From positions 2,130,001 to 2,162,000 of the forward strand of contig NZ_CP042911.1 in NCBI RefSeq assembly GCF_008065095.1: DNA of 32,000 nt, read 5' to 3'. This document shows positions 6,458 through 24,548 of this stretch, in pieces. Made by a program: the position numbers and the translations under genes. Numbering within the stretch: position 1 is the stretch's first letter; each line of letters opens with the position of its first letter. The stretch is from Gemmata obscuriglobus. Lineage in GTDB: Bacteria; Planctomycetota; Planctomycetia; Gemmatales; Gemmataceae. The notes beneath the pieces are model-generated. The model did not search any database. It saw only the letters and a list, made by a program, of their open reading frames with translations, and was not told the origin of the DNA.

Positions 6458-6638
6458 GGGGTAAGGGTTTCAATGATTGAAGAGTTCAATTCTTGACGCC
6501 ACTGCTCTACATATCCTCTAAGTGAGTGACCAACCAGACCGCAGAACGTGGCGACCTGCCAGGCGAGTGCCGGGGGTGAGGCGTCCGGGAGGTCGGGGGT
6601 TCGGCATATATGTGTTGAATCAAATAATCAGAGGGCAA

Positions 6639-10933: not shown

Positions 10934-10941
10934 GGGGGCAT

Positions 10942-11322
10942 TTGAGGAGCACTCTATCGCAGATTGTGACCACGATCAGGAACTTCAATTTGGTGATGCC
11001 GGGGCAGGTGAACGCCTTGACCACGGACAATCTTCAGCCCCCGTACATCCAGGTGGCCGAGTTTGTGCGGGTACCCAATCGGGACACCCAAAACGGCGTG
11101 TTGGAGTCCACCTTCAGCGTCTTGGTGGTCGCCAAGAACCTGGAGGAGGCTGAAGATTTGGCCGAGAACCTCGATTCGCACCTGACGAACAATTATGAAG
11201 CCACGGACCAGGACATCGGCATCTTTCAAGAGCAGTACGCCGTGGGCCTCACGGATCCGTCGAACTTGTATCAGGTCGGCGTGAAGCTGGATTACCGACT
11301 CTTCGAAGACCCCAACAAATAA
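10942..11322 (+). CDS. Tail terminator-like protein (DUF3168-like)
   Basis: TTG start lies after AGGGGG. It is 126 aa and sits just upstream of the tail tube genes. The family call is weak. Confidence 0.5.
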   Translation: MRSTLSQIVTTIRNFNLVMPGQVNALTTDNLQPPYIQVAEFVRVPNRDTQNGVLESTFSVLVVAKNLEEAEDLAENLDSHLTNNYEATDQDIGIFQEQYAVGLTDPSNLYQVGVKLDYRLFEDPNK

Positions 11323-12974: not shown

Positions 12975-14312
12975 GTGGCGGTAACGGGAAAGATTGCTGA
13001 CGGCATTATTCAGATCGCTCTGGCCGGGTACGAAAAGGTCAAGGAGCAACTGAACGCCGTCAAAGGGCAACTGGGCCAGATGAAGAACGGCCTGGACACC
13101 CTCACGTCCGCCTCGGCCAAAGGGTTTGCCGTCGCCTCGGCTGGCATTCTTGGCTTCCTGAAAGCGGCCGACCCGGTGCGGTTCACCATCTTCACGCAGA
13201 AATTGGAGGTGCTCGCCATTCATATCGGCCGCACCTTCATCCCGCTGCTCGAATCGGCCATCAAGTGGATCGACAAGCTAATTGCGTACTTCAGCAAGCT
13301 CAGTGACGGCCAGCGGGACAATATCCTCCACTGGTCGAAGATCGGCCTACTAATTCTGGGCGTCGGGACCGCAATTGGTAAAGCCATCAGTTTGATTTCG
13401 AGCTTGTGGAGCCTTATCTCGGCCGGTGTCGGCGTGGTCCGGCCGCTGGTCGAGATCCTGTCGAAGATCATCCCTATCGGCAAGGTTCTGCGGCTGTTGA
13501 CGCTGGGGTTCCTGTTGTTCAACGGCGAAGCAGGTCGGGCGACCGAACTGTTTGGCAAGCTGAAGGAAATGGCCCTTCCGGCTCTGGAGAGCTTGTGGGG
13601 CGTGTTGAAGAAGGTGTACGAGGCGTTCGTCCAGGTCGGGGGCCTGGTGGGCGACATCGTGGACGACATCTTCAACGGCATCGGCGGCGGACTGCTGGAC
13701 GTGTTCGAAGAGGCGTTACCGCTGATTCAGTTGGCACTGAACCACATGAAGGCCATCCTGGATCTTATCGGGACGGCCTTGTCTGAGGTGGTTAGTGTCA
13801 TCAAGGACGCTAAGGCGATTTACTCGGTGTTGAGAGAGAAAAAGGCGAGCGAGCTGCCGAAAGCGATTGCTCAGGGCCTCGGTCGGGCCGTGGTGAACGA
13901 CCTGGAAGGTGCGGCCGGAAACATCAGCGACTTCTTCGGCGGTTTCGGCAAAGAAACGCTGGGTGGTGTGGCTGATTTTGTTCGGGACGATGTGATTGGC
14001 GGCAAAGCGGACGAAGACGCTATGTCAGCGGCCCGGGAGCGACTGGACACCACAGACGGCGACTTCAGCGGCCACGGGTCCGGTGGCGAATTTACCGGGG
14101 CGGGCGGCAAGTACAACCCGCTCCTCCCGCCGGTACGGGTACAGAATTTTGGTCTGGAAGAGGCGTTCAAGAAGGCCCAGCAAGGGGCCAGCTTCGACCC
14201 GACAAAAATTGCGGAGAACGAGCGGAAAAAGATCGCCATCGAGAGTCGGGATTATTTGAAATCGATCAGCGAAAAGGTGACCCCAGAGAGTGCGGCGGCT
14301 GGTGCGTTTTAA
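12975..14312 (+). CDS. Tape measure protein (short, 445 aa)
   Basis: AGGAGG-acc-GTG start. The protein looks helical with long hydrophobic stretches (LLILGVGTAIGKAISLISSLWSLISAGVGV) and a Gly-rich C-terminal part. It follows the chaperones. Confidence 0.75.
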   Translation: MAVTGKIADGIIQIALAGYEKVKEQLNAVKGQLGQMKNGLDTLTSASAKGFAVASAGILGFLKAADPVRFTIFTQKLEVLAIHIGRTFIPLLESAIKWIDKLIAYFSKLSDGQRDNILHWSKIGLLILGVGTAIGKAISLISSLWSLISAGVGVVRPLVEILSKIIPIGKVLRLLTLGFLLFNGEAGRATELFGKLKEMALPALESLWGVLKKVYEAFVQVGGLVGDIVDDIFNGIGGGLLDVFEEALPLIQLALNHMKAILDLIGTALSEVVSVIKDAKAIYSVLREKKASELPKAIAQGLGRAVVNDLEGAAGNISDFFGGFGKETLGGVADFVRDDVIGGKADEDAMSAARERLDTTDGDFSGHGSGGEFTGAGGKYNPLLPPVRVQNFGLEEAFKKAQQGASFDPTKIAENERKKIAIESRDYLKSISEKVTPESAAAGAF

Positions 14313-14327
14313 TTCATACGGAGGACC

Positions 14328-15320
14328 ATGAGTTTAGCGGAGTACGGCTACACCCTGACCACGAAGGACTCGAACGCAGAGTGGGACGCCACAGACTACA
14401 AGATCATAGCGAGTGGGTCCGGTGGCGGCACGTTCGCACCGGGCAACAGCCAGGCCACGATCGTCTATCTAGTCGAATACTACTACGTCGAGCGGTTCCT
14501 GGACGTGGTGCTTGGTAAAACCGTGAACCCCGGCACCGGTCTTCTTCGCCGGTCGGCCTCGGCCCCGGAGTTCGATTCTCTTCAAGGCTCTACCCCTGAA
14601 GAGCACCCGTACTTTTACAATTTTTTTGCCGCAAGTGCCGAGGTGGTGCCGATGGGCAAGCCGTCGGAGGACGTGGACGGTAGCCCGCTCTGGGCCAAGG
14701 CGTTGGTGACGGTCGTGTTCCGCCCGAACAACTACCTCATTGTGCCGGACGGGGAGTATACCAGCACCACCGAGATAAACCGATTCGTGGTCAAAACGCA
14801 GGAAGGCAACGCTGATTTTCAAACGTCACAGGGGCAGTTCAGGTTCGTGACGGACCCGGAACACCGGCCACTGGAAATTCAGCCAGCCATTGTCATTGCC
14901 AACCAACGACTCACGTACATTTGGAAGCAGGTGCCGGTGAAGGTGGACGTTGACGGCCGTCCGGACCTCGGCAAGATCCCGAACCTGGGCACCGTACTGC
15001 CGCTGGAAGGCACGATCAACGAGACCGTTTTCGACGGGTACGAACCGGGAACCGTTTTGTTTTCGGCGTACACGCCGACATTGGTGATGCCCCAAGCGGC
15101 CACGGCGAACAACTATTACTGGGAGATCGCTTACGCCCTGTCGGTGCGGGACTACGGTGTGTCGTTCACGCCCGTCGTGCCGGGCGAACACGTCGGCTGG
15201 AACTACGCCTACGACCCGACCCGGAACCAGTGGGACTTGTACACGGACACGGGTCTCGTCGACGGTCGGCCCATGTACAAGTACGGCGAGTTGAACGACC
15301 TGTTTGCGGTGACGTGGTAA
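14328..15320 (+). CDS. Distal tail / baseplate protein (positional call)
   Basis: GGAGG-acc-ATG start. It is 330 aa and is the first gene after the tape measure. No motif recognised. Confidence 0.55.
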   Translation: MSLAEYGYTLTTKDSNAEWDATDYKIIASGSGGGTFAPGNSQATIVYLVEYYYVERFLDVVLGKTVNPGTGLLRRSASAPEFDSLQGSTPEEHPYFYNFFAASAEVVPMGKPSEDVDGSPLWAKALVTVVFRPNNYLIVPDGEYTSTTEINRFVVKTQEGNADFQTSQGQFRFVTDPEHRPLEIQPAIVIANQRLTYIWKQVPVKVDVDGRPDLGKIPNLGTVLPLEGTINETVFDGYEPGTVLFSAYTPTLVMPQAATANNYYWEIAYALSVRDYGVSFTPVVPGEHVGWNYAYDPTRNQWDLYTDTGLVDGRPMYKYGELNDLFAVTW

Positions 15321-15329
15321 AGGGGGCCA

Positions 15330-15980
15330 GTGCTTCAGAAGCTCAGTGCGTTCCAGACGGTGACACCGGCCGAATACAACCGGCTGGTTGAGTACGTCAA
15401 CACGATTACCGACATTCGCACCAGCCCGCCACTGGAGGTGTCGCACTTCGGCGGCGGCACGCAACTGCGGGTGATCCAGACCGGGTTCCAGGCGGCCGTC
15501 ACCGGGGTCGTTGACCTGGACGCCTCCCCGCCCTCGTCATCTTCATCCGAACCCAGCAACCGGTTCAAATACACGGTTCAAGAGGTCATTCAGCTCCCCA
15601 ACGGGAAGTGGGAGTACCTTGAAAACGGGCGATTGCTGACGGGTGGCATCGGCGTCTGGGAATGGAACGACCGTCGGGTGGACGTGGGCACCGTCGTGTC
15701 CGTAGAACAGTGGGACGTGTACGACTGGCGGTTCAACGCCGGGGGCGGTGAAGAAGAGGGCTCATCATCTTCGTCATCAGGTTCGTCCGGCTCATCGTCT
15801 TCGTCATCTTCTTCGAACTCTTCGAAATCGTCGAACTCGTCCAGTTCCTCGGGTTCGTCCTCGTCGGGCGGGTGCTTCGATTTGGTGTCGAACCTCGTGT
15901 ACGACGCCGAGGCGTGTACTCTCACGGTCACCAAGCTGAGTGTGTGCATCCCCGACTGCGTGACCGTGATTTACAGCTAA
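15330..15980 (+). CDS. Distal tail protein with poly-Ser linker and Cys-containing C-terminal module
   Basis: GTG start lies after GGGGG. A Ser-rich tract covers residues 145-179, and a shorter PPSSSSSEPS lies at 67-76. The C-terminal 36 aa contain 4 Cys. Confidence 0.6.
   Translation: MLQKLSAFQTVTPAEYNRLVEYVNTITDIRTSPPLEVSHFGGGTQLRVIQTGFQAAVTGVVDLDASPPSSSSSEPSNRFKYTVQEVIQLPNGKWEYLENGRLLTGGIGVWEWNDRRVDVGTVVSVEQWDVYDWRFNAGGGEEEGSSSSSSGSSGSSSSSSSSNSSKSSNSSSSSGSSSSGGCFDLVSNLVYDAEACTLTVTKLSVCIPDCVTVIYS
15762..15866 (+). repeat. Low-complexity Ser-rich coding tract (Ser runs broken by Gly, Asn and Lys)
   Basis: The DNA is mostly TCx/AGy Ser codons. It translates as SSSSSSGSSGSSSSSSSSNSSKSSNSSSSSGSSSS. 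Confidence 0.9.
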
Positions 15981-15988
15981 GGAGGCCC

Positions 15989-16465
15989 GTGCCCGGCGAC
16001 ATCGACCTGACGATGATGTGTGAAGATTGCTGCCAGCCGAAACCGGACTACGACCTGGTTTGTAGTACCCCCTGCTTGCTACCGAACCGGGTGATGGTCA
16101 CCATCACGTCGACGTGTCCGGAGTTCAACGCCGAGACGGGCGGAAGTTACGTTGTTTACGCAGAAAACGATGGCACTCCGGGAACGTTGTGGGCGGTATC
16201 GGCGTTCGGGACCGGGTGGGGCGTGTTCGGTCACATTTTGTGCGGCGGTGGGGACTGTGGCGGTTACTGCTACGGACCGTTCCGGTTCGACGGTGGGACG
16301 TTTTGTTCGTCAATCTTTGCCGTCGCCTACGAGTGCTGCACCTGGTCCAATCAGTACAGCACCGGAGAAGCCCAACCCGTTGTGGACGCCAATCTTTATC
16401 TGTACGGCGGAATGTATGTTCTTCATATCGAAGATTACGGCGGTGGTGACCCGGGATGTGAGTAA
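15989..16465 (+). CDS. Cys-rich (13 Cys in 158 aa) distal tail protein
   Basis: AAGGAGG-ccc-GTG at 15989 lies inside an ORF open from 15872. CC and CxxC-like clusters are present (CEDCC, CGGGDCGGYC, ECC). Confidence 0.6.
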   Translation: MPGDIDLTMMCEDCCQPKPDYDLVCSTPCLLPNRVMVTITSTCPEFNAETGGSYVVYAENDGTPGTLWAVSAFGTGWGVFGHILCGGGDCGGYCYGPFRFDGGTFCSSIFAVAYECCTWSNQYSTGEAQPVVDANLYLYGGMYVLHIEDYGGGDPGCE

Positions 16466-16473
16466 GGAGGAGT

Positions 16474-17181
16474 GTGGCCGGACCGATCTTAGAGCCGTTG
16501 CCCAGTCTTACGCCGATTGAACCGTCGTCGAGTGCCGCACCAGTATCGAGTGCAGCACCCATTGAACCGTCGTCGAGTGCGACCCCGCTTCCGTCTTCAA
16601 GTGCGGCTCCTTTGCCGTCATCGAGTGCGACCCCGCTTCCGTCTTCAAGTACGGCTCCTTTGCCGTCATCCAGTGCGACTCCTTTGCCGTCATCCAGCAC
16701 AACTCCTTCGCCGTCATCGAGTTCCGCACCGCTGCCGTCTTCAAGCACCGCACCCTCATCAAGCCGTTCTTCTTCAAGCTCATCGTCGAGGGGCCGCTCC
16801 ATCACGATCCCCCTCGGCGGGTGCTGTGGCTGTTCGTCGTCATCGTCTTCGGCAAGTGCCGTTCCATGTAGTAGTTACCCGGGCTCTCTGTCGTACACGG
16901 TGTCACCGAACTGTACGCCGGGCATCCCGGCCCTTCCACTGACGGGCGGTCCGACGGTGTGGAACGCCGGGGCCACTACTAGCTGTGCCCCGACCGGATG
17001 GAGTATCACGCTGCACTGTTCGGGCGGTGCCCTGACGTACTCGGTTGCGGATGGCGGTGGGACGTACACCGGAGGCGTGACGATTTTCTCGACCAGCCCG
17101 TTTCACGCTCAAATCGTTTACACACCGGGGCCGGGTTCGTGCTGCGGCGGCACGCCTCAAACCATCGACATCACGGCGTAA
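16474..17181 (+). CDS. Ser/Pro tandem-repeat protein with Cys-rich C-terminal domain (candidate fibre / receptor-binding protein)
   Basis: AGGAGG-agt-GTG start. An N-terminal (A/T)(A/T)PLPSSS array is followed by a poly-Ser tract. The C-terminal domain has 9 Cys (GGCCGC, SCC). Confidence 0.65.
   Translation: MAGPILEPLPSLTPIEPSSSAAPVSSAAPIEPSSSATPLPSSSAAPLPSSSATPLPSSSTAPLPSSSATPLPSSSTTPSPSSSSAPLPSSSTAPSSSRSSSSSSSRGRSITIPLGGCCGCSSSSSSASAVPCSSYPGSLSYTVSPNCTPGIPALPLTGGPTVWNAGATTSCAPTGWSITLHCSGGALTYSVADGGGTYTGGVTIFSTSPFHAQIVYTPGPGSCCGGTPQTIDITA
16513..16790 (+). repeat. In-frame tandem repeat, about 24 nt unit (xxPLPSSS), with a near-exact 48 nt higher-order copy
   Basis: gtgcgaccccgcttccgtcttcaagt(g/a)cggctcctttgccgtcatc occurs twice in succession. 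About 8 degenerate units are present. Confidence 0.85.
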
Positions 17182-17209
17182 ATCTGGACGGCAGAACTCT
17201 TAATACTGC

Positions 17210-17479
17210 ATGTGGATTGATGAATTAAAACGTGAACTGACGGGCCGAATGCTCGACATCTGGGATGGCACCAGCGGCTTAGCCCCCGACATTGAAGAGG
17301 GGTACCGGCGGTTGTGGCGGCGACAAGCGGCCTCGGCCAAGGAGGGGGTTCGACCCGGACGAGACGGTCCGGCGTCGGGGTGCGGTTGTAAAGGAGAACA
17401 TGGGCAACGGCGTACCGCTAGAGAAGCAAGCAGCTCCTCCGTATCGTCTTCACCTCCGTCAGGGGCAGTGTCCGGGTGA
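17210..17479 (+). CDS. Doubtful small ORF (MWIDELKRELTGRMLDIWDG...)
   Basis: ATG ORF of 89 aa. The first ~45 aa look protein-like and the rest is low complexity. It overlaps the next gene by 80 nt and has no SD. Confidence 0.25.
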   Translation: MWIDELKRELTGRMLDIWDGTSGLAPDIEEGYRRLWRRQAASAKEGVRPGRDGPASGCGCKGEHGQRRTAREASSSSVSSSPPSGAVSG

Positions 17480-18356
17480 CGTGCTGGTCCTCACAGCAGC
17501 CGTCGAAAGCTTGCACCGAGCTTACCCGGGGGAATATCTCGTATCGGTCCAGACGACCGCACCTGAAATTTGGTGGCACAACCCCGGAGTTACCGACACC
17601 CCGGCGTACCAGTGTGCAATTTTGGAAATGGAATATCCGGCCATTCACGAGTGCGGCACTCGGCACGTCCATTTCATGCACGCCTTCTGCGAATATCTGT
17701 CGAATTTGATCGGCCGTCCAGTGCCTTTGGCAGTGAACCGGCCGCACCTGTACCTAGCCCCCGACGAACAAAAGCCGCTGGACGCTGTTCGGACCGATGT
17801 CCCGTACTGCGTCATCAATGCCGGGCACAAACTAGACTACACGGCCAAGTTCGCTAGCACGGCAATTTGGCAGGAGGTGGTGGATTATTTCCGGGGGCGG
17901 CTTCAATTCGTTCAGGTGGGAGAAGCGAATCCGCACCACATCCATCGCCCTCTGGAGGGAGTGCTGAACCTGATCGGCAAAACGACATTCCGTGAGTTCT
18001 TTCGGCTGGTTCGGTATTCGACGGTGGCGTGCGGTCCGGTTTCGTTTTTGATGCACACGGCCGCTGCGTTCGAGGTGCCTTATGTGTGCCTGGCCGGGGG
18101 CCGGGAGGAGCCGTCATGGGCGGCGTATTCCACGACTCAGTATCTGCACACGATGGGGGCGTTGGACTGTTGCCGCACATCGAGAGCGTGCTGGAAGTCG
18201 AGGACGGTGCCGCTGAAGGACGGAAATCGAAATGACCTGTCGCTTTGTTCGCTGCCGGTGATCCAGGACGACGGTGAAGCGGTGCCGAAATGCCTAGATA
18301 TGATTGGTGCCGCCGGCGTAATTCGGGCCATTGATCAGCAACTGGGAGGCAGATGA
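17400..18356 (+). CDS. Glycosyltransferase family 9 (heptosyltransferase)-like protein
   Basis: AAGGAG-aac-ATG at 17400 lies inside an ORF open from TTG 17292. NLIGKTTFREFFRLVRYSTVACGPVSFLMHTAAAFEVPYVCLAGG matches the GT9 C-terminal nucleotide-sugar binding signature (recall only). Confidence 0.7.
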   Translation: MGNGVPLEKQAAPPYRLHLRQGQCPGDVLVLTAAVESLHRAYPGEYLVSVQTTAPEIWWHNPGVTDTPAYQCAILEMEYPAIHECGTRHVHFMHAFCEYLSNLIGRPVPLAVNRPHLYLAPDEQKPLDAVRTDVPYCVINAGHKLDYTAKFASTAIWQEVVDYFRGRLQFVQVGEANPHHIHRPLEGVLNLIGKTTFREFFRLVRYSTVACGPVSFLMHTAAAFEVPYVCLAGGREEPSWAAYSTTQYLHTMGALDCCRTSRACWKSRTVPLKDGNRNDLSLCSLPVIQDDGEAVPKCLDMIGAAGVIRAIDQQLGGR

Positions 18357-19882
18357 GCGACGGGAAAAAGCTGGTTCAGTTCTTCGACCACGGCCTCGGA
18401 GATTGTGTGCAGTACGTCACGCTGCTCCAGTTGTACAAACGGCGGGGGTACGACGTTCGGTGCCACTGGGAACCGAACAAAGAACACGTGTTCCAGGCCG
18501 CCGGGATCGGGCACCAGCAGACGCTTAAGCACAATCCGTGGAAGTACTACCCGGGCTTCAATTCCCCGAAACCAGAACAGGACGGCAGCGGCAACAAGAC
18601 CTTCTTGAATTTGAACCGGGACGGCCTTCCGCACATCGGCGAACCCGATGAGCTTTGGGACGAACTGTGCCAAGTGAACCTGGAAGACAGTTTCGACAAG
18701 CTCATCACGCCGGAAGTGCGGGCCGAGGTGGATCGATTCCTTGACGGCCTGCCCCGACCGATCGTCTGTATTCACAGTAAAGGCACGAACTTTCAGGGCG
18801 AGAAAACAATTCCGGATAAGGCGATTTCCGAGGTGTACTCATTGCTCCTTGACGGGATGCCGGGGTCGTTGGTTCTGATGGACTGGGACAACCGGGTGCC
18901 CCGGCCGCCGCATGGTCGTATTCGTCACGTGAAGCGGGACTGGGGCCACATTTCCGTTCTGCAAACAGCAGCCCTGTTGAGTGCGTCGGACCTCCTGATC
19001 GGCATCGATTCCGGCCCGTACCACCTGGCCGCAATGACTCGAACTCCGGCTTTGGGCGTGTTTCACCACTTTTACCCATCGTGCGTGACGTTGCCCCGGC
19101 CAACGCTGAAAAACGTCGTCATGACCCGGAATGCGAATTCGTACAAACCGGTGAACCAGGCCCGGCGAAAGCGGTGGAGTGTGGTGGAATACGGCGGAGC
19201 TTTGCCGTCTGCTTCGGACATCGCCACTCACGCTTTACGGATGCTAACCGGACCTCGTTACGGACTTCCGTTGGGCCGGGACGTGATGCTTCAACAAATG
19301 GTCCGAGACTGGTTGAAAGCGAGTACTGGCACCTCGGCGTTGGCAGACCGGAACAACACGATGGACTGGTTGTTTCGAGAGCTTGGCCGTTTTCCGAACC
19401 CGCAAATTGTTGAAACCGGTAGTATTCGAAGCCGGGAGGATTGGTCGGCGGGCTACAGTACGTACTTATTCGGGTGCTATTTGGACGGCCGGAATGCGGG
19501 GCAACTGACTTCGACGGACGTTGACGGCGGGAATTGTGCGACGGCTCGGGAGCTTTGTCGTCCGTGGGGCGAACGGGTTTCGGTGGTCGAGTCGGATTCG
19601 GTGCAATTTTTGAAGGGATACGGCGGGAAGATCGACGTGTTGTTCCTTGATTCGATGGATTGCGAACACGCTGAACACGCTTCCCACGGACTGGCCGAGG
19701 CGAAGGCGGCCGAACCGCACTTCCACGACGGTTCAATCGTAGGGTTCGACGACACTGTTTGGCAGAGCGGGCGGTGGACCGGCAAGGGCGGCCTCGGCGT
19801 GCCCTACCTACTCGGCCAGGGGTGGAAGGTGGCGGCCAGCGGGTACCAGACATTCCTCGTTATAGGACCGGGAAAGACGTGA
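18353..19882 (+). CDS. Fusion of a GT9-like glycosyltransferase (N) and a class I SAM methyltransferase-like domain (C)
   Basis: The ATG overlaps the previous stop (ATGA). LLIGIDSGPYHLAAMTRTPALGVF is the GT9 signature. IVETGSIRS...GYST and IDVLFLDSMD resemble class I SAM-methyltransferase nucleotide-binding motifs. Confidence 0.7.
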   Translation: MSDGKKLVQFFDHGLGDCVQYVTLLQLYKRRGYDVRCHWEPNKEHVFQAAGIGHQQTLKHNPWKYYPGFNSPKPEQDGSGNKTFLNLNRDGLPHIGEPDELWDELCQVNLEDSFDKLITPEVRAEVDRFLDGLPRPIVCIHSKGTNFQGEKTIPDKAISEVYSLLLDGMPGSLVLMDWDNRVPRPPHGRIRHVKRDWGHISVLQTAALLSASDLLIGIDSGPYHLAAMTRTPALGVFHHFYPSCVTLPRPTLKNVVMTRNANSYKPVNQARRKRWSVVEYGGALPSASDIATHALRMLTGPRYGLPLGRDVMLQQMVRDWLKASTGTSALADRNNTMDWLFRELGRFPNPQIVETGSIRSREDWSAGYSTYLFGCYLDGRNAGQLTSTDVDGGNCATARELCRPWGERVSVVESDSVQFLKGYGGKIDVLFLDSMDCEHAEHASHGLAEAKAAEPHFHDGSIVGFDDTVWQSGRWTGKGGLGVPYLLGQGWKVAASGYQTFLVIGPGKT

Positions 19883-19890
19883 CGAGCGGC

Positions 19891-21213
19891 TTACTGCTTG
19901 ACCCGGGGCAGCGGAGCTACCTCGACGGCCTTAATGGTGATGATGAATTCTCCATCTGGCCTGTAGAATTTTTCTTTGTCAGGCCCACACAGATCGCCAT
20001 ATGTTCCTACTGCCATCAATATTTCGCTTGAAAGCTTATTCTTAACAAGATGGTTTCTGTATATTCTTTCGATCGTCTTGTCTAGAAGTACTCTCACCTG
20101 CGATGGCTCCGTCGCCGTGAGTAGGTCACACACGCCTTGGGTCGTCACCTTTGTTCCGAGCAGCCCTGCGTACCGAAGGGTTTTGATCCGCCGGAGGGAC
20201 ACGTCGGTGACGGCCGTCCGATCGGCCACGAACACCCCGAGGCTTACGGCACCGTCAAGGAATGAGGCTAAAGACCCGTCATCAACCGCCGTGTGAGAAA
20301 CATCAAGAAAGTCAATTTTTGCGGCGTCACTTATTTGTGGGAGAACGGTCAGGTTGTTCTTCGACAGGTTGAGCCTCTTGACGCCGTTGACCTTCAGGCT
20401 GCGAATCTTTGCATCGCTCAGCAAACAGTTGGGCAAGCTCAGACTCGTGAGGCCGTGAATTTGGCTAATAACTTGCAAGTCGGACGGTTCAAGGGCAACT
20501 CCCACAATATCAAGACTGACCAGATTCCTAATGCTCGAAACGGCCTCCACGATTGGTGCTGACTCTTCCAATTTGAGCGGCGGATTCTGCCATGCCGGCC
20601 CGTACCCCCCATTGTCACGCTCGTTCGAGTAGGTCCGAACTGTGACACTCACCTTCTGTGTCGTCGGGTCAATGTCGATGTCACAACCGACCCGGTGGTT
20701 TGTCGTCCGGCCGAGACCGGCCAGGAAAGCAACCGCTCTCTCATGACGAGCGAATGCTTCAAGTCGCTTATTCGCCTTGTCCAGTTCCTGTTCGGCACCA
20801 GCTAGCTTTAACGCAAACCCGGCCGCAAGCTTTCGCTTCTCACTCACCTCCGTTTGTGCAGCCCCGAGATTCTTGGCGGTTTGGGCCAAGTCAGCTTCCT
20901 TTTCCTTCAAAACCCACTTCAACTGGTTGATCTCGGCATTGATAGCGTCTCGTTTCACCACTAGCTCTTTCTGGTCGCCTTCCAGTTTCATTACCTGCAT
21001 GGCGACTTCGCTTTTTTTTGCCTCCAGTTCGCTCTTTTTGCTGTCAATGACGCCGGTCGAATACAGCATGTACCCAGCGATAATTGTTGCACTAACCCCA
21101 GCGGCTGTAGTCAGGCTGCTGATCCATTCAGTTGGTTTCGAGGCCCGCAGCCACGTACCCGTCACGTGCATCCAGAGCCGTGCCCACCGCCCCAGCCTCG
21201 ATTTGCTGGCCAT
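19891..21213 (-). CDS. Membrane-anchored coiled-coil leucine-rich-repeat protein (accessory/moron gene)
   Basis: ATG 21213 follows AGAGGGGA. TTG 21270 is an alternative start. It has a TM-like segment (ISSLTTAAGVSATIIAGYMLY) and ~100 aa of heptad-like charged sequence. LRR-like units follow (LTSLSLPNCLLSD, VKRLNLSKNNLTVLP, IDFLDVSHTAV). The 3' end is only about 35% GC. Confidence 0.75.
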   Translation of the reverse strand: MASKSRLGRWARLWMHVTGTWLRASKPTEWISSLTTAAGVSATIIAGYMLYSTGVIDSKKSELEAKKSEVAMQVMKLEGDQKELVVKRDAINAEINQLKWVLKEKEADLAQTAKNLGAAQTEVSEKRKLAAGFALKLAGAEQELDKANKRLEAFARHERAVAFLAGLGRTTNHRVGCDIDIDPTTQKVSVTVRTYSNERDNGGYGPAWQNPPLKLEESAPIVEAVSSIRNLVSLDIVGVALEPSDLQVISQIHGLTSLSLPNCLLSDAKIRSLKVNGVKRLNLSKNNLTVLPQISDAAKIDFLDVSHTAVDDGSLASFLDGAVSLGVFVADRTAVTDVSLRRIKTLRYAGLLGTKVTTQGVCDLLTATEPSQVRVLLDKTIERIYRNHLVKNKLSSEILMAVGTYGDLCGPDKEKFYRPDGEFIITIKAVEVAPLPRVKQ

Positions 21214-21297
21214 TGCGTCCCCTCTTGAGGTTCGCTGTCCAATTTTTGGTTCGCTGGCGAACGTTTGCAATTTTCTGCGATGCGGGGTGCGAGGTGC

Positions 21298-22080: not shown

Positions 22081-23706
22081 TTATTTCTTTTTCTTTGCGG
22101 ACTTGGCCATGTGTGCCATGTCGGTTAGTGGCACTTCGGTACCCCACACGCCTTGTTCGTCCTTCGCTGTGTCGTACCACACCTTTCGCACCGTCCCGGA
22201 GTGCAGCCGGATTGTCAGAAACACCCGCTTGTCCTCGACGCTCACTTCGATCTTTTCCAGGTGCATTAATAGCCGTTGCCGTACCTGCTCCCTGAGTTCT
22301 TTGAGTTCGGAGCCGGATTTGCTTTTCATCAGGTCAACTAGGGCTTTCGTGTCCTCGATGTTCGGCCTCGTTTGCTGGCGTGATTTCTCTTCGATTTCGT
22401 TCGTCAGCCGGGTTTTCTCGACCTGCATTTCGGCTAACTTCGCCATGACCGCTGGCACCTCTGCCCCAAGCTGGTCGAGCTGGTCAGCGATATTCTTGAT
22501 CCGCTCTTCGAGAAATTTCCTCTGAGCTTTGAGCGTCTCGATACCGTCTTCTTGGTTCTCTTGCGGTAGAAGGTCGCTTGCCTTCAATTCGTACAGCCAG
22601 TGCAGCACCACGCTTTCGAACCGTTCGTACCGCACCGCTACGTAGGGGTGCTCTTTCTTCCAGCCCAGATACGAGACGAGATACCGATAGTTGTGCTTTC
22701 CCGATTTGTTCGTCTTCGGCTTAGATATGAAAACCATATTGCAATCATGTTCTGGGTAGCGAACCAACCCCGTGAACAGGTTCACGAAATCGCCCTTCCG
22801 CCCTTGTTTGCCCGACCGGAGCTTCATTGCGTCTTGTGCAGCCCGATACGTTTTCTCATCGATAATCGGCGGGTAATATCCGGGGATGGCCGGACCGGGC
22901 TTGACCTTCTCGCCGTGTATCTGGGTCGGCAGTTCCCCCAGGACTCGGCGGTCCCTGAGAATGTCCCAGATGTATTTTTGTGCCCACCCGCTCCTGAACG
23001 GCGGTACCTTCTCTTCGAGCAATCGCCGCATTATCGATTGCAGCCCGTGCCCTTCGATGCACCAGCGGAACAGCTTCCGCACCAGCTCCACACGCTCCGG
23101 AATTTCTTCGAACCGGCCGCCGGTCACCCGGTTGTTCTTCTTCTTTTGATCCACCACCTTCAGCCACCCCGGGCAGATTTTGCTGAAAACCTTCCCTTCT
23201 GCGGCTTGGCGGTGTTTCTCCGTCCAGTTTTCCCGGGACCGAACCGCCTTTTTCTGTGACTCTTCGTGGGCCAAATAAAACCGCCAAATCAAACCCATCA
23301 GCCCCATCGGATCGTTCAAGCTGTCTTTCGTGTAAAGCCGGTACTCGATGACGCTGAACAGGTCACAGCCCTGTTCAAGTATTTTTCTCGCCACGTCCAC
23401 GCTGGCCATGATTTTGTCACGGGAGAGCCGGTCCAAGTCCTCCAGAATTAACACCGGGTTCGGTTCCAGTTGTCTCGCTTCGAGGGCTGCGAGAAATGCG
23501 GACAAATCGCCTTTGGTGCGGTTTCGGCCACGAAAGGCAGATACCCCGCAGTCCCGGTACGTTTTCGTTTGGAGTACCCACCCTTTTTCCCGGCAGATTC
23601 GTACCGTGCCTTCCGTTTGCCGTCGCTGGCTGTCACCCTTTTCTTGCTCTGGGGTGCTGAACCGTAGGTAGCTGTAGGCGGGGCGGTTCGGTGTGGTCGG
23701 GTTCAT
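22081..23706 (-). CDS. Large serine recombinase (prophage integrase)
   Basis: The N-terminal resolvase-type catalytic domain has AYSYLRFSTPEQ..GDS..RQ and LILEDLDRLSRD. A long recombinase domain and a C-terminal coiled-coil-like region follow. It is 541 aa and is the last gene before the host junction. Confidence 0.9.
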   Translation of the reverse strand: MNPTTPNRPAYSYLRFSTPEQEKGDSQRRQTEGTVRICREKGWVLQTKTYRDCGVSAFRGRNRTKGDLSAFLAALEARQLEPNPVLILEDLDRLSRDKIMASVDVARKILEQGCDLFSVIEYRLYTKDSLNDPMGLMGLIWRFYLAHEESQKKAVRSRENWTEKHRQAAEGKVFSKICPGWLKVVDQKKKNNRVTGGRFEEIPERVELVRKLFRWCIEGHGLQSIMRRLLEEKVPPFRSGWAQKYIWDILRDRRVLGELPTQIHGEKVKPGPAIPGYYPPIIDEKTYRAAQDAMKLRSGKQGRKGDFVNLFTGLVRYPEHDCNMVFISKPKTNKSGKHNYRYLVSYLGWKKEHPYVAVRYERFESVVLHWLYELKASDLLPQENQEDGIETLKAQRKFLEERIKNIADQLDQLGAEVPAVMAKLAEMQVEKTRLTNEIEEKSRQQTRPNIEDTKALVDLMKSKSGSELKELREQVRQRLLMHLEKIEVSVEDKRVFLTIRLHSGTVRKVWYDTAKDEQGVWGTEVPLTDMAHMAKSAKKKK

Positions 23707-23775
23707 GGTTTCCCCTCGATTGCCCTGATTTTAAAGCATTTCATGTGGTTGTCAAAAGTGTTGGCGGGTGCGTGG
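23707..23775. other. Prophage-host junction (attL or attR of the serine integrase)
   Basis: AT-rich phage sequence (ttttaaagcatttcatgtggttgtcaaaagtg) gives way to GC-rich comEC-like coding sequence at about 23757-23765. The exact crossover dinucleotide cannot be placed without the other junction. Confidence 0.6.
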
Positions 23776-24548
23776 TGATCGAGGCGCCGGACGGCCGGGT
23801 GCTGCTGTACGACACCGGCACCACCGCCGGCCCGGACGCGGTGCGCCGGGTGGTGGCGCCGTACCTGTGGAGCCGCGGGGTGACGCGGATCGACGAAGTG
23901 TTCTTGTCGCACGCCGACCTGGACCACTTCAACGGGGTGCCGGAACTGCTCCGGCGGTTCCACGTGGCTCAGGTGACGATGACGCCGACGTTCCCGGACA
24001 AGAATAGCCCCGGCGTGGAAGCCGTGCTAGCCGCGCTGGACCGGCACAACGTCCCGCGCGGGTTCGCGGCCGCGGGGCAGCGGTTCGTCGCGGGAGATGT
24101 CGCGCTGGAGGTGTTGCACCCGCCGCCCGTCGGCCTGGAGGGGAACGAGAACGTGCGAAGTCTGGTGCTGCTCGTGCGTCACGGCGCGCACACGGTGCTG
24201 CTGACGGGCGATCTGGAAGGGGAGGGGCAGGCGCGGGTGACGGCGCGGGCGATTGCGCCGGTGGACGTGATGCTGGCCCCGCACCACGGGGCGAAGAGTG
24301 CGAACGCGCCGCGTGGCGTGGCGGGCGCGCCGGAACCGGGTGTGATGGCGGCGTGGGCGCGTCCGAAGTTGGTGGTATCGAGCCAGCGGGCCGGGACCGC
24401 GACGGATCACCTGCCCCGGAGCTACCGCGGGGCGACGGTGTGGGACACGCCATCGGCCGGGGGAGTGACGGTGCGGAGCCACCGCACCGGGATGGTCGCG
24501 GACGCGTTCCGCACCGGCGCGCGCCAGGTGGTCGGGCGCGGGGAGTAG
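23757..24548 (+). pseudogene. comEC: comEC/rec2-like gene, 3' fragment (metallo-beta-lactamase domain only), split by the prophage
   Basis: VVIEAPDGRVLLYDTG, LSHADLDHFNG, NENVRSLVLLV, LLTGDLE and APHHGAKS are the ordered ComEC MBL-domain motifs. The membrane competence domain is absent. The upstream 66 nt of the open frame are phage-like in composition. Confidence 0.8.

What the first reader, a model, noticed from the sequence alone, without database searches (positions are those of the whole stretch)
15330..19882. Ser-tract / Cys-rich distal tail proteins directly coupled to two GT9-like glycosyltransferases: candidate virion glycosylation module
Three consecutive distal-tail genes (15330, 15989, 16474) combine Ser-rich or (A/T)(A/T)PLPSSS tracts with small disulfide-type Cys-rich modules. 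On the same strand with tight spacing they are followed by two heptosyltransferase-like (GT9) genes, the second fused to a methyltransferase-like domain. GT9 enzymes normally build the LPS inner core, so finding them at the end of a phage late operon is unusual. Ser/Thr-rich tracts are classic O-glycosylation substrates, and virion glycosylation by phage glycosyltransferases has been reported for some mycobacteriophages. A competing explanation is lysogenic conversion of host LPS, like the gtr clusters near int/att in enterobacterial phages. The late-operon orientation favours virion modification. Possibly methylated heptose on tail-tip proteins would be a new kind of phage decoration.
Basis: partly seen in the sequence, partly recalled or inferred. 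Interest (0 to 1): 0.8.

Follow-up and report, generated by a model that had tools for sequence, protein, structure and literature searches.

The report
Poly-serine tail proteins with heptosyltransferase-like pair
A Gemmata prophage ends its tail operon with three serine-tract, cysteine-rich proteins and two heptosyltransferase-like enzymes (one fused to a sugar-type methyltransferase), and this enzyme pair sits next to poly-serine proteins in many unrelated phages, phage-tail-like machines and surface-protein loci, which suggests an undescribed system that sugar-coats poly-serine stalks.

Summary
The window is a Gemmata obscuriglobus siphovirus-type prophage. After the tape measure and a conserved 330-aa tail protein come three tightly coupled genes with poly-Ser or (A/T)(A/T)PLPSSS tracts and Cys-rich modules (15330, 15989, 16474). 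Two soluble GT-B enzymes follow. GT9a (17400-18356) folds like WaaF, WaaC and the protein O-heptosyltransferase TibC. GT9-MT (18353-19882) carries a GT9 domain plus a methyltransferase domain that resembles sugar O-methyltransferases.

The new evidence is comparative. GT9a and GT9-MT form a conserved gene pair in at least six bacterial phyla and in viral contigs. In 21 of 33 loci a poly-Ser protein lies within 3 kb (26/226 near ORFs against 5/267 far ORFs, p=9e-6). These neighbours come from unrelated settings: siphophage tail tips, contractile baseplate/eCIS-type clusters, a TIG surface protein, a membrane protein and a gene next to an Rhs protein. Every recoverable relative of this phage keeps GT9a and the Ser tracts, while the partner transferases vary. 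Some loci add ADP-heptose-synthesis-type genes.

My best reading (about 0.55) is cytoplasmic O-glycosylation of the poly-Ser tracts, probably with methylated heptose. The main rival is LPS or cell-surface conversion. Nothing is biochemically proven. No cultured phage in the collection searched carries the pair.

The parts
14328..15320 (+). p330: conserved 330-aa tail protein directly after the tape measure. It marks this phage lineage and is a context gene, not part of the modification system.
   Evidence: It has no Pfam, PHROG or NCBIfam match. The collection holds 23 homologues. The low-GC relative L120 has a Ser tract inserted in this protein.
15330..15980 (+). SerA: an N-terminal domain conserved in related phages, a short SPPSSSSS tract, a middle domain, a 35-residue poly-Ser tract (residues 145-179, nt 15762-15866) and a C-terminal Cys module (GGCFDLV...CTLTVTKLSVCIPDC).
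   Evidence: Translation. Homologues in L005, L010, L095, L119 and L120 show the same architecture with Ser tracts of very different length. The same C-terminal '..VTDV..C..G..VVTKT..C' module occurs in the unrelated viral contigs L007, L011 and L014. It has no transmembrane segment or signal peptide.
15989..16465 (+). CysB: 158-aa Cys-rich (8% Cys), Gly-rich small protein carrying the 'CysD'-type motif (C..LP..V.VTITS.C).
   Evidence: GTG start after AAGGAGG. It has no family match. It resembles the Cys-rich domains that follow Ser tracts in L011, L014, L095 and L008.
16474..17181 (+). PLPS: about 110 residues of Ser/Pro-rich repeats (residues 18-109, nt 16525-16800), then a GGCCGC cluster, then a C-terminal Cys-rich 'CysD' domain (residues 118-235).
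   Evidence: 24-nt repeat, 7.5 copies, 16567-16745. A search with the CysD domain found only 11 relatives among 1.84 billion representatives, and some of these are preceded by long Ser tracts. The same domain ends a 574-aa TIG-domain, poly-Ser protein directly upstream of GT9a in the non-phage locus L121.
17210..17479 (+). Small ORF whose first ~45-57 residues (MWIDELKRELTGRMLDIW...) are conserved upstream of GT9a. It overlaps the GT9a start in another reading frame.
   Evidence: tblastn matches in L010 (49% identity, E=4e-14), L084 and L007. It is fused in frame to GT9a in L010 and sits in a separate frame in the window and in L084. Function unknown.
17400..18356 (+). GT9a: 318-aa soluble GT-B glycosyltransferase of GT9 type, with five invariant Cys near the C-terminus. 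Proposed initiating (protein-directed) transferase.
   Evidence: AF2 pLDDT 96.1. Foldseek matches are 3tov, WaaF 1psw, TibC 4rap/4rb4 (TMq up to 0.66) and WaaC. A family profile hits WaaF at E=2e-4 and aligns the Lys of the family's 'aKkW' motif with the first residue (K192) of the WaaC match. Invariant residues are G26, D27, K144, K150, C257, C258, C264, C283 and C298. More than 580 homologues were found. It has no transmembrane segment.
18353..19312 (+). GT9-MT, N-terminal GT9-type GT-B domain (residues ~1-320). Proposed second (elongating) transferase.
   Evidence: PF01075 at 29.2 bits, above the cut-off of 22. It has an HGLGD17 motif and an invariant D219-S-G-P motif. A family profile hits 3tov, as does Foldseek. 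AF2 pLDDT is 95.9.
19349..19882 (+). GT9-MT, C-terminal class I SAM-methyltransferase domain (residues ~333-509). Proposed sugar O-methyltransferase.
   Evidence: PF13578 at 31.1 bits, above the cut-off of 26.3. The best structural matches are MeT1 of Mycobacterium hassiacum, COMT and CalS11, a TDP-rhamnose 3'-O-methyltransferase. Some homologues carry an additional TylF domain.

Best explanation
The five genes from 15330 to 19882 form a protein-glycosylation module built into the tail operon. After prophage induction, the tail-tip proteins SerA, CysB and PLPS are made in the cytoplasm together with two soluble GT-B enzymes.

Proposed steps (all inferred):
1. GT9a, a GT9-type enzyme with a conserved Asp/Lys pair and a TibC-like position for a Cys cluster, transfers a nucleotide-activated sugar to serine hydroxyls in the poly-Ser tracts. 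The sugar is most likely heptose from ADP-heptose.
3. The result would be a stiff, hydrophilic, protease-resistant mucin-like stalk. It would link the tail-attachment domains to small Cys-rich distal modules, which I take (without a test) to be the receptor-binding tips.

What is shown: gene identities, folds, conserved motifs, tight operon coupling, and the recurrent genomic association of the enzyme pair with poly-Ser proteins. What is inferred: the acceptor, the sugar, the order of the two enzymes and the physical role of the glycan.
For: 1. Enzyme identity. Both proteins give high-confidence GT-B models that match GT9 structures. GT9a matches the serine O-heptosyltransferase TibC with TMq 0.60-0.66. 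The methyltransferase domain matches sugar O-methyltransferases. All proteins lack transmembrane segments, which fits modification in the cytoplasm, where phage tails assemble.

2. Conserved pairing. GT9a and GT9-MT are adjacent in about 30 loci from Planctomycetota, Verrucomicrobiota, Acidobacteriota, Armatimonadota, Eremiobacterota, Proteobacteria and IMG/VR contigs.

3. Association with poly-Ser. A poly-Ser ORF lies within 3 kb in 21 of 33 pair loci. That is 26/226 near ORFs against 5/267 ORFs further away in the same loci (Fisher p=9e-6). The 65 viral loci without the pair had 0/1267 such ORFs, but that control is confounded by GC.

4. Diversity of the neighbours. Apart from the tract, the poly-Ser neighbours are unrelated to each other:
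- siphophage tail-tip proteins (window, L005, L007, L010, L011, L014, L095);
- a 2440-aa viral protein (L008);
- proteins in clusters with Baseplate_J and Tail_P2_I, plus DUF6519 proteins beside an eCIS_core gene;
- a TIG-domain protein (L121);
- a membrane protein with an HExxH motif (L106);
- a gene next to an Rhs/YD protein (L107).

5. Lineage retention. The collection holds 23 p330 homologues. Nine of them share a contig length with a GT9 hit. Every context of this lineage that could be read shows Ser tracts plus GT9a. In L119 GT9-MT is replaced by a GT25 and a GT2-like gene while GT9a and the Ser tracts stay. L011 adds an MT24-GT34 fusion. This is the pattern of a constant initiating enzyme with variable elaborating enzymes.

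6. Donor. L003 and L014 place CTP_transf_like, PfkB and NAD-epimerase genes inside the cluster. These are the two halves of HldE and an HldD-like enzyme.

7. Precedent. TibC and AAH heptosylate serines, not threonines, of proteins in the cytoplasm (PMC4358343). Mycobacteriophage virions are glycosylated by phage enzymes (cited in PMC12619734).
Against: - There is no biochemical evidence of any kind. The acceptor is inferred only from gene neighbourhood.
- Twelve of the 33 pair loci show no poly-Ser ORF nearby. These include the lytic-type phages L009, L012 and L013 and the chromosomal cluster L003.
- Two adjacent GT9 genes next to hldE/hldD-like genes is also the classical signature of LPS inner-core synthesis (WaaC/WaaF).
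- By E-value, GT9a's best matches are an uncharacterised GT9 (3tov) and WaaF, not TibC. It also lacks TibC's N-terminal beta-barrel.
- Poly-Ser tracts could be plain flexible linkers that are common in receptor-binding cassettes of these phyla, with the GT genes travelling in the same cassette for another reason.
- No GT-less relative of this phage was found, so presence/absence co-variation could not be tested.
- The viral control set has much lower GC.
- Whether Gemmata makes ADP-heptose was not tested.
Confidence: 0.55

Rival explanations
1. Lysogenic conversion or superinfection exclusion. The two GT9 enzymes act like WaaC/WaaF. They would add heptose (which the fused domain then methylates) to the host's LPS core or another envelope glycan, changing the receptor that this phage's own tail tip recognises. 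The Ser tracts would be ordinary linkers.
For: - GT9 is the LPS heptosyltransferase family. The NCBIfam and Pfam matches are to RfaQ and heptosyltransferases I-III, and WaaF and WaaC are top structural and profile hits.
- The genes lie at the prophage end, near the integrase and a probable moron (the LRR gene). From my own knowledge, this is the position of the conversion genes in P22-like phages.
- A chromosomal cluster (L003) has the pair with ADP-heptose-synthesis-type genes and no poly-Ser protein.
- A 28-nt gap plus a small ORF separate the pair from the last tail gene.
Against: - The pair also occurs in lytic-looking phage contigs and in baseplate/eCIS-type clusters, where converting the producer's LPS has no obvious purpose.
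- It is retained in every recoverable member of this phage lineage, at divergence comparable to that of the structural genes (GT9a 42-64% and GT9-MT 35-68% identity, against p330 31-58% and adaptor 28-62%). Morons are usually sporadic.
- This reading does not explain why unrelated poly-Ser proteins, including non-phage membrane and TIG proteins, lie next to the pair.
- No gtr-type membrane components are present.
- No terminator or promoter-like site was found between the tail genes and the GT genes. The scan is weak for this organism.
Confidence: 0.25
2. The pair glycosylates a protein, but not at the Ser tracts. The target could be the Cys-rich modules (S- or O-linked) or another virion or host protein. 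The Ser tracts would co-occur only because they belong to the same fibre architecture.
For: - In phage-type loci the Ser tracts are often bracketed by CC/CxC clusters (21 of 55 tracts).
- A recurring Cys-rich 'CysD' domain follows the tracts in both phage and non-phage neighbours.
- GT9a itself has an invariant Cys cluster.
Against: - The baseplate/eCIS-type neighbours (L098, L101-L103) have Ser tracts without Cys brackets or a CysD domain, so the tract is the only shared feature.
- From my own knowledge, the known S-glycosyltransferases belong to a different family (GT2).
- The one characterised protein-modifying GT9-like family targets serine (PMC4358343).
Confidence: 0.08
3. The enzymes act on a non-protein, non-LPS acceptor, such as phage DNA hypermodification, a small molecule or a polysaccharide used in particle release.
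For: - Phage glycosyltransferases often modify DNA (reviewed in PMC12619734).
- DNA methylase genes lie next to the pair in L120 and L119.
Against: - The pair occurs in DNA-free tail-like particle clusters and in cellular loci.
- The methyltransferase domain resembles sugar and catechol O-methyltransferases, not DNA methyltransferases.
- No base-hypermodification genes are present in the window.
Confidence: 0.04

Closest known systems
BAHT family (TibC / AAH), autotransporter O-heptosyltransferases of E. coli (PMC4358343)
   Same: - GT-B, GT9-like catalytic core.
- It uses ADP-heptose in the cytoplasm and modifies many serines (not threonines) of a protein that later sits outside the cell.
- It has a Cys4 metal 'finger' inserted near the C-terminus of the C-lobe. 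GT9a has five invariant Cys in the corresponding stretch (C257, C258, C264, C283, C298, against TibC C339, C342, C358, C370).
- TibC is among the best structural matches of GT9a.
   Different: - GT9a lacks the N-terminal beta-barrel (318 aa against 406 aa; its Rossmann strand 1 starts at residue 15).
- A sequence profile does not retrieve TibC.
- The presumed substrates are poly-Ser low-complexity tracts in tail, baseplate or surface proteins, not beta-helix autotransporters.
- A second GT9 enzyme fused to a methyltransferase is always or usually present.
- Dodecamer formation and iron binding are untested.
LPS inner-core heptosyltransferases WaaC / WaaF (CAZy GT9) with the hldE / hldD operon
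   Same: - Same fold and family-level sequence signal. The N-terminal GD motif, the Lys that aligns with WaaC K192 and the D/S-G-P-x-H motif are present.
- Two adjacent GT9 genes.
- Some loci add HldE-half and epimerase genes.
   Different: - Scores against the equivalog models are tiny: 16-25 bits against cut-offs of 135-467.
- The genes are embedded in phage tail or baseplate operons next to poly-Ser proteins.
- One enzyme is fused to an O-methyltransferase.
- GT9a carries an extra Cys-cluster insert.
Mycobacteriophage virion glycosylation (Che8/Corndog type; Freeman et al. 2023, cited in PMC12619734)
   Same: Phage-encoded glycosyltransferases decorate the phage's own structural proteins.
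   Different: - The targets there are the C-termini of capsid and tail-tube subunits. Here the presumed targets are long poly-Ser tracts of distal tail proteins.
- The host phyla are different.
- I could not read the primary paper, so details such as the enzyme families it reports come from memory or are unchecked.
Serine-rich-repeat adhesin glycosylation (GtfA/GtfB with accessory Sec) of Gram-positive bacteria (own knowledge)
   Same: A pair of GT-B proteins encoded next to a protein with very long Ser-rich repeats. Dense O-glycosylation happens in the cytoplasm before the protein leaves the cell, and variable extra glycosyltransferases elaborate the glycan.
   Different: - The enzymes there are GT4-type with UDP-GlcNAc as donor, with SecA2/SecY2 export and LPXTG anchoring. 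None of these is present here.
- The organisms and protein families are different.
gtrABC / O-antigen conversion modules of temperate enterobacterial phages (own knowledge)
   Same: Glycosyltransferase genes at the prophage end, between the tail genes and the integrase.
   Different: The gtr systems use membrane proteins (a flippase, a bactoprenol glucosyltransferase and a GT-C-type transferase). Here both enzymes are soluble GT-B proteins, and no such membrane components are present.

Membership tests
CAZy GT9 / Pfam PF01075 (heptosyltransferase family) | Match to the family model above the curated cut-off | tested here: met
   GT9-MT scores 29.2 bits against a cut-off of 22. GT9a itself scores 19.6 bits, which is below the cut-off. 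Its orthologue in L119 scores 30.2, and most GT9a homologues carry a precomputed PF01075 hit. The match covers only the C-lobe.
CAZy GT9 / Pfam PF01075 (heptosyltransferase family) | GT-B two-Rossmann fold most similar to solved GT9 structures | tested here: met
   The AF2 models have pLDDT 95.9 and 96.1. The top Foldseek hits for GT9a are 3tov, 1psw (WaaF), 4rap/4rb4 (TibC) and 2gt1/2h1h/6dfe (WaaC), all at probability 1.0. The GT domain of GT9-MT hits 3tov.
CAZy GT9 / Pfam PF01075 (heptosyltransferase family) | Catalytic Asp in the N-terminal 'GD' motif and the phosphate-binding Lys (WaaC D13/K192; TibC D110/K230) | tested here: inconclusive
   Invariant G26-D27 and K150 in GT9a, and D17 and K151 in GT9-MT. 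The HMM alignment puts the Lys of the family's 'aKkW' motif on the first residue (K192) of the WaaC match, and aligns PGD with MGD, but that N-terminal segment is not significant. No structural superposition at residue level was possible.
CAZy GT9 / Pfam PF01075 (heptosyltransferase family) | ADP-heptose as donor | not testable with these tools
   The support is indirect only. CTP_transf_like plus PfkB genes (the HldE halves) sit in L003, and CTP_transf_like plus an NAD-epimerase sit in phage contig L014, in both cases inside the cluster.
BAHT (TibC/AAH) protein O-heptosyltransferases | N-terminal beta-barrel domain (TibC residues 1-97) | tested here: not met
   GT9a is 318 aa and its first Rossmann strand starts at residue 15. 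It has no N-terminal domain. The conserved ~45-residue leader ORF (17210-) is too short to be this domain.
BAHT (TibC/AAH) protein O-heptosyltransferases | Cys4 iron-finger insert in the C-lobe (TibC C339/C342/C358/C370) | tested here: inconclusive
   Five invariant Cys (C257, C258, C264, C283, C298) lie between the last Rossmann strand and the C-terminal helix, with spacing and position comparable to TibC. Metal binding is untested.
BAHT (TibC/AAH) protein O-heptosyltransferases | Detectable sequence relationship to TibC/AAH, and an adjacent autotransporter substrate | tested here: not met
   The profile search of the PDB does not retrieve TibC even at E<=10. No autotransporter is encoded in the window or in the related loci.
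Class I SAM-dependent O-methyltransferase (Pfam Methyltransf_24) | Family model above the cut-off, and a Rossmann methyltransferase fold similar to sugar O-methyltransferases | tested here: met
   PF13578 scores 31.1 bits against a cut-off of 26.3. Foldseek matches MeT1 (6g80/6g7d), COMT and CalS11 (5hoq/3tos). A family profile hits the putative O-methyltransferases 5lhm and 8c9s.
gtr-type O-antigen conversion module | GtrA flippase, GtrB (GT2, bactoprenol-linked) and a polytopic membrane Gtr transferase | tested here: not met
   No such Pfam families were found. GT9a and GT9-MT have no transmembrane segment.
Extracellular contractile injection system / contractile tail baseplate (applies to related loci, not the window) | Baseplate J, P2 gpI-like wedge and eCIS_core (PF13699) genes adjacent to the GT pair | tested here: met
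   Baseplate_J scores 31.9 and 60.9 bits in L100 and 21.0 bits (cut-off 21.1) in L113. Tail_P2_I scores 29.5 bits in L100, and DUF6519 264 bits in L102. eCIS_core is present in L113 and L114. Sheath and tube genes lie outside the fetched flanks, so 'eCIS' as opposed to 'myovirus prophage' is not settled.

The most novel reading that the evidence does not exclude
GT9a/GT9-MT define a widespread, undescribed protein O-glycosylation system. A metal-finger GT9 enzyme would recognise poly-serine tracts and plate them with heptose, which partner enzymes then extend and O-methylate. The product would be mucin-like glycan stalks on the distal fibres of phages, contractile injection systems and some cell-surface proteins across at least six bacterial phyla. 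On this reading, poly-Ser tracts bracketed by Cys clusters would be a genomic signature of glycosylated fibres, and the variable transferase islands would be a new axis of phage host-range or immune-evasion diversity.
Probability: 0.4. Interest if true: 0.85.

Novelty: new variant of a known kind. Interest (0 to 1): 0.72.

Why it matters
If the reading is right, three things follow.

- Bacterial protein O-heptosylation is so far characterised only for enterobacterial autotransporters. It would extend to a large, phylogenetically broad enzyme family.
- It would be the first case of tail-fibre (as opposed to capsid or tube) glycosylation, and the first outside actinobacteriophages.
- Contractile injection systems and phages would share a post-translational decoration module.

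It would also assign a function to the poly-Ser tracts that gene callers and annotators treat as junk or linkers. In two fetched loci the pipeline's gene calls missed such genes: L121 and the 9858-11059 gap in L120. Variable glycosyltransferase islands behind the tail genes would matter for host range, for protease and environmental stability of virions, and for engineering of tailocins and eCIS particles.

The hypothesis is directly testable in a culturable organism. Gemmata obscuriglobus carries the prophage.

Tried and rejected
1. DNA search of the finding against 50,697 cultured-phage records found no match. Protein searches there found only an MT-domain hit in Synechococcus phage S-EIVl for GT9-MT and nothing for GT9a. 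No cultured phage is therefore available as a model.

2. Single-sequence PDB searches found no hits. Profile searches gave only weak GT9 and O-methyltransferase hits.

3. I looked for GT-less relatives of this phage to use as a negative control, and none was found.
- p330 profile scans of IMG/VR and of the metagenome contigs returned only loci already known to carry the pair.
- The large protein search gave 23 homologues. Nine share a contig length with a GT9 hit, and the two further contexts that gave usable sequence show GT9a.
- One look-up (P0248) ended on a 7.5-kb contig that stops after p330 and is uninformative.

4. The reverse association test failed. A (TCN)7 pattern would have matched only 3 of 22 known loci, so I did not run it.

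5. The 65 MT-only viral loci used as a control had 0/1267 Ser-tract ORFs. Most have GC 0.35-0.45 against 0.5-0.68 for the pair loci, so I treat this control as weak.

6. The Cys-rich domains are too divergent for a pattern scan. A full HMMER search found only 11 relatives.

7. PADLOC found no defence-system match for the GT genes or their neighbours. The only hit was a weak coiled-coil similarity of the LRR protein to JetC.

8. The literature library held no description of GT9 genes coupled to Ser-rich tail proteins and no data on heptose in Gemmata LPS. The primary mycobacteriophage glycosylation paper is not held.

9. I considered and rejected DNA glycosylation and a gtr-type system (see the rival explanations and membership tests).

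Full report
**What the window is.** The GT9-MT protein is 100% identical to GobsT_18660 of Gemmata obscuriglobus, and p330 is identical to GobsT_18610. The + strand carries a head-to-tail late operon:
- terminase C-terminus (66-1040)
- portal fused to a Mu-F-like domain (1019-3181)
- prohead protease (3303-4133)
- HK97-type capsid (6522-8069)
- adaptor and neck genes
- a 445-aa tape measure (12975-14312)

No sheath gene is present, so the particle is siphovirus-like. On the minus strand lie a coiled-coil/LRR protein (19891-21270) and a large serine integrase (22081-23706). GC rises from about 0.55 to 0.63-0.72 beyond 24 kb, where host genes begin with a metallo-beta-lactamase-fold protein. The finding therefore covers the last five genes of the late operon, next to the integration module.

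**Checking the observation.** Each is preceded by a Shine-Dalgarno-like motif, and the gaps between them are 8-9 nt.
- SerA (15330-15980) has a short SPPSSSSS tract and a 35-residue near-pure Ser tract (residues 145-179). A Cys-containing C-terminal module follows.
- CysB (15989-16465) is 8% Cys and 15% Gly.
- PLPS (16474-17181) starts with about 90 residues of (A/T)(A/T)PLPSSS-type repeats, encoded by a 24-nt tandem repeat with 7.5 copies. Next come GGCCGC, another Ser run and a 118-residue Cys-rich domain.

None of the three has a transmembrane segment or signal peptide, and none matches Pfam, PHROGs or NCBIfam beyond low-complexity noise. 'Distal tail' is therefore inferred from position only.

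**The two enzymes.** GT9a starts at the ATG at 17400, behind AAAGGAG. Homologues align from there, and close relatives are called at 317-319 aa. GT9-MT overlaps GT9a by 4 nt.
- Sequence signals are weak but consistent. PF01075 scores 19.6 bits for GT9a (below the cut-off of 22) and 29.2 bits for GT9-MT, which also scores 31.1 bits on Methyltransf_24. NCBIfam heptosyltransferase equivalogs match only a ~60-residue core, far below their cut-offs.
- AlphaFold models built on 43-45 homologues are very confident, with pLDDT 95.9 and 96.1.
- Foldseek places GT9a with the Veillonella GT9 structure 3tov, WaaF, WaaC and TibC. TibC is the protein serine-O-heptosyltransferase of ETEC. It gives TM-scores of 0.60-0.66 and the lowest rmsd among the top GT9 matches.
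- The GT domain of GT9-MT also hits 3tov. Its C-terminal domain is closest to MeT1 of Mycobacterium hassiacum, to catechol O-methyltransferase and to CalS11, a TDP-rhamnose 3'-O-methyltransferase.
- Family alignments show an invariant G-D at the end of strand 1 in both proteins and conserved lysines. The Lys of the GT9a family's 'aKkW' motif aligns with the first residue (K192) of the WaaC match in the profile search. GT9-MT has an invariant D-S-G-P motif.
- GT9a has five invariant cysteines (257, 258, 264, 283, 298) between the last Rossmann strand and the C-terminal helix. TibC carries its Cys339/342/358/370 iron finger, which is needed for oligomerisation and substrate binding, in a comparable place (PMC4358343). 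I could not access model coordinates, so this equivalence remains a lead.
- GT9a lacks TibC's N-terminal beta-barrel, and no sequence profile retrieves TibC. It works on a GT9 scaffold but is not a BAHT family member.

**Relatives elsewhere: a conserved pair.** GT9-MT has more than 120 full-length homologues, and GT9a more than 580. Scans anchored on GT9-MT recovered loci from six groups plus IMG/VR viral contigs: Planctomycetota, Verrucomicrobiota, Acidobacteriota, Armatimonadota, Eremiobacterota and Alpha-, Beta- and Gammaproteobacteria. In about 30 of these loci a GT9a homologue lies beside GT9-MT, usually abutting it on the same strand. Some homologues fuse an extra TylF-type O-methyltransferase or a further glycosyltransferase. 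No record in the cultured-phage collection has the pair. BFVD does show GT9-like folds in uncultured phages, one of them named 'Aah/TibC'.

**The key result: the pair travels with poly-Ser proteins.** I called ORFs in 33 pair-containing loci and scored serine content in 15-residue windows.
- Twenty-one loci have an ORF with at least 60% Ser in such a window within 3 kb of the pair.
- This is 26 of 226 near ORFs against 5 of 267 ORFs further away in the same loci (Fisher p=9e-6).
- In 65 viral loci that carry only an MT-domain relative, 0 of 1267 ORFs qualify. Those loci are much lower in GC, so I treat that control as weak.

The poly-Ser neighbours share nothing except the tract:
- small tail-tip proteins behind the tape measure in several different siphophage types (window, L005, L007, L010, L011, L014, L095)
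- a 2440-aa viral protein (L008)
- proteins in clusters with Baseplate_J and Tail_P2_I genes, and DUF6519 proteins next to an eCIS_core gene (L086, L096, L098, L100-L103, L113, L114)
- a membrane protein with an HExxH motif (L106)
- a gene next to an Rhs/YD-repeat protein (L107)
- a 574-aa TIG-domain protein directly upstream of GT9a (L121). There the pipeline had called spurious antisense genes over the Ser tract.

That is a dozen or more independent settings. Adjacency to a compositional feature rather than to a homologous protein is what one expects if the tract itself is the enzyme's substrate.

**Within the phage lineage.** Five relatives with the same tail synteny were found by their structural genes (L005, L010, L084, L095, L118). 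All carry Ser-tract proteins followed by GT9a and GT9-MT. The enzymes diverge about as much as the structural proteins do: GT9a 42-64% and GT9-MT 35-68% identity, against p330 31-58% and adaptor 28-62%. That pattern suggests long co-inheritance rather than a sporadic moron.

The protein collection holds 23 p330 homologues. Nine of them share a contig length with a GT9 hit. Two further contexts add detail.
- L120 is a low-GC relative. It has Ser tracts even inside p330, plus GT9a and GT9-MT.
- L119 keeps the SerA homologue, a 'CECCSSSSSSSS' protein and GT9a, but replaces GT9-MT with a GT25 and a GT2-like gene.

L011 adds an MT24-GT34 fusion. L014, a phage contig, inserts a cytidylyltransferase-like gene, an NAD-epimerase and an extra methyltransferase between GT9a and GT9-MT. 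The chromosomal cluster L003 has CTP_transf_like and PfkB genes, the two halves of HldE.

A constant GT9a with variable elaborating enzymes and occasional sugar-nucleotide genes is how protein- and O-antigen-glycosylation islands are typically organised. It also points to an ADP-heptose-type donor. I found no relative without GT genes, so strict presence/absence co-variation could not be tested.

**Architecture of the presumed substrates.** In the phage-type proteins the Ser tracts are frequently bracketed by CC or CxC clusters, for example 'CDCC-S(n)-NCCCEF' and 'GDCCC-S(n)-ACGCG'. This holds for 21 of 55 tracts.

Two recurring small modules follow the tracts:
- a ~35-residue '..VTDV..C..G..VVTKT..C' terminus, as in SerA
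- a ~110-residue Cys-rich domain with a 'C..LP.TLY.T[IV]' start, as in PLPS and CysB

Both also occur in unrelated viral contigs, and the second occurs in the L121 TIG protein. The second domain is rare and divergent: only 11 relatives were found among 1.84 billion representatives, and some of them are preceded by ~100-residue Ser tracts. Tract length varies from about 10 to more than 250 residues between homologues, as expected for a spacer whose length is under little constraint.

**Most likely mechanism.**
- Shown: gene order and coupling, folds, conserved catalytic-type residues, solubility, and the comparative associations.
- Inferred: after induction the tail-tip proteins and both enzymes are made together in the cytoplasm. 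GT9a O-glycosylates serines in the tracts. GT9-MT adds a second sugar and methylates it. The decorated tract forms an extended, protease-resistant stalk carrying the Cys-rich distal modules, which I take (without a test) to be the receptor-binding tips.
- The sugar is probably a heptose. This rests on family membership and on the HldE/HldD-type genes in some loci.

I put this reading at about 0.55.

**Rivals.** The strongest rival (about 0.25) is envelope conversion. On this view the two enzymes are WaaC/WaaF analogues that alter the host's LPS core or another surface glycan, for example to block superinfection. The family's canonical role, the position beside the integrase, the chromosomal cluster L003 without a poly-Ser neighbour, and the 12 loci lacking nearby Ser tracts all fit it. 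Four points count against it:
- the pair's presence in lytic-type contigs and in baseplate/eCIS-type clusters
- its stable retention in the lineage
- the absence of gtr-type membrane components
- above all, the unexplained adjacency to unrelated poly-Ser proteins

The smaller alternatives are protein glycosylation at the Cys-rich modules and modification of DNA or small molecules. They are listed with the rival explanations.

**Comparison with what is known, and verdict.** Functionally the closest system is the TibC/AAH serine heptosylation of autotransporters. Organisationally it resembles the GtfA/GtfB glycosylation of serine-rich-repeat adhesins. Conceptually it resembles mycobacteriophage virion glycosylation. 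It belongs to none of these families (see the membership tests). I found no description of GT9-type enzymes coupled to poly-Ser tail or baseplate proteins in the literature library.

I rate the finding a new variant of a known kind, namely protein O-glycosylation on a GT9 scaffold. Interest is high because:
- the association is broad across phyla and particle types
- it links phages and contractile injection systems
- it gives poly-Ser tracts a testable function
- it can be tested in a culturable host

The verdict rests entirely on comparative genomics and structure prediction. Glycopeptide mass spectrometry of induced virions would settle it.

Noticed in passing
window 17210-17479 (+); also L010 8856-9017, L084 8853-9026, L007 3647-3853: A small ORF starts 28 nt after PLPS. 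Its first ~45-57 residues (MWIDELKRELTGRMLDIW...) are conserved upstream of GT9a in related loci. In L010 it is fused in frame to GT9a as an N-terminal extension. In the window and in L084 it is in a different frame and overlaps the GT9a start. This could be a separate leader or partner peptide, a frameshift site or a decayed extension.
   Followed up: partly
window 19891-21270 (-): A 459-aa protein with a moderately hydrophobic stretch near residue 57, a long coiled coil and leucine-rich repeats (LRR_8, 22.7 bits, below the cut-off). It converges on the end of GT9-MT with an 8-nt gap, between the late operon and the integrase. It is a candidate moron or lysogen-expressed surface protein. Its only PADLOC similarity is a coiled-coil match to JetC.
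   Followed up: partly
window 22081-23706 (-) and 23690-24100: A large serine recombinase (Resolvase plus Recombinase domains; phrog_95, E=8e-74) marks the prophage end. The best sigma-70-like promoter match in the scanned region (11 of 12, 23755-23728, minus strand) sits just upstream of it. GC rises from about 0.55 to above 0.62 beyond 24 kb, where a metallo-beta-lactamase-fold host gene begins. I did not map the att sites.
   Followed up: no
window 18353-19882: PHROG family phrog_24975 matches GT9-MT end to end (1-509 of 509, 1164.6 bits) and has no assigned function. This Gemmata prophage, or an identical copy, is therefore probably in the PHROGs source set as an unannotated family.
   Followed up: no
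Ser-tract proteins in L005, L007, L008, L010, L011, L014, L084, L095, L096, L100, L119; window 16780-16830: In phage-type loci the poly-Ser tracts are commonly bracketed by CC/CxC/CCC clusters (21 of 55 tracts), for example CDCC-S(n)-NCCCEF. The baseplate/eCIS-type proteins lack these brackets. The brackets might be metal or disulfide staples at the ends of a flexible stalk, or recognition elements for the transferase.
   Followed up: partly
L086, L098, L101-L103, L113, L114 (group B); L096, L100: In Eremiobacterota, Proteobacteria and Acidobacteriota the GT9 pair, or GT9-MT alone, closes clusters that encode Baseplate_J, P2-gpI-like, DUF6519 and eCIS_core (PF13699) proteins. Ser tracts are inserted inside the large baseplate- or fibre-like proteins. 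Sheath and tube genes lie outside the fetched flanks, so eCIS, tailocin and myovirus prophage cannot be told apart.
   Followed up: partly
L014 7773-13332; L003 8463-14153; L011 8226-12731; L119 4725-8978: The transferase island behind the Ser-tract genes varies in content. L014 has GT9a, a cytidylyltransferase-like gene, an NAD-epimerase, a GT9-MT-like gene and an extra MT24. L003 has HldE-half genes, an extra methyltransferase and a C-type lectin. L011 has a 777-aa GT9-MT and an MT24-GT34 fusion. L119 has GT25, a GT2-like gene and GT9a without GT9-MT.
   Followed up: partly
L121 6226-7950 (+); L120 9821-11038: Automatic gene calls failed on poly-Ser genes. In L121 two antisense ORFs were called instead of a 574-aa TIG/poly-Ser/Cys-rich protein. 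GC at the third codon position is equally high on both strands (0.85 against 0.87-0.88), so the + strand reading rests on the recognisable TIG and Cys-rich domains, not on codon bias. In L120 the region is uncalled and contains a run of N. Poly-Ser proteins are probably under-annotated in public data.
   Followed up: partly
window 1019-3181 and 4527-6131: The portal protein is fused to a Mu-F-like head-morphogenesis domain (PF04860 plus PF04233). A 534-aa ORF between the protease and the capsid gene has no match in Pfam or PHROGs.
   Followed up: no
L122 (614-kb JGI contig, GC 0.42): A GT9a homologue sits beside GT34 and methyltransferase genes on a very large contig packed with short unannotated ORFs, possibly a jumbo phage or giant virus. 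No Ser tract lies within 8 kb.
   Followed up: no
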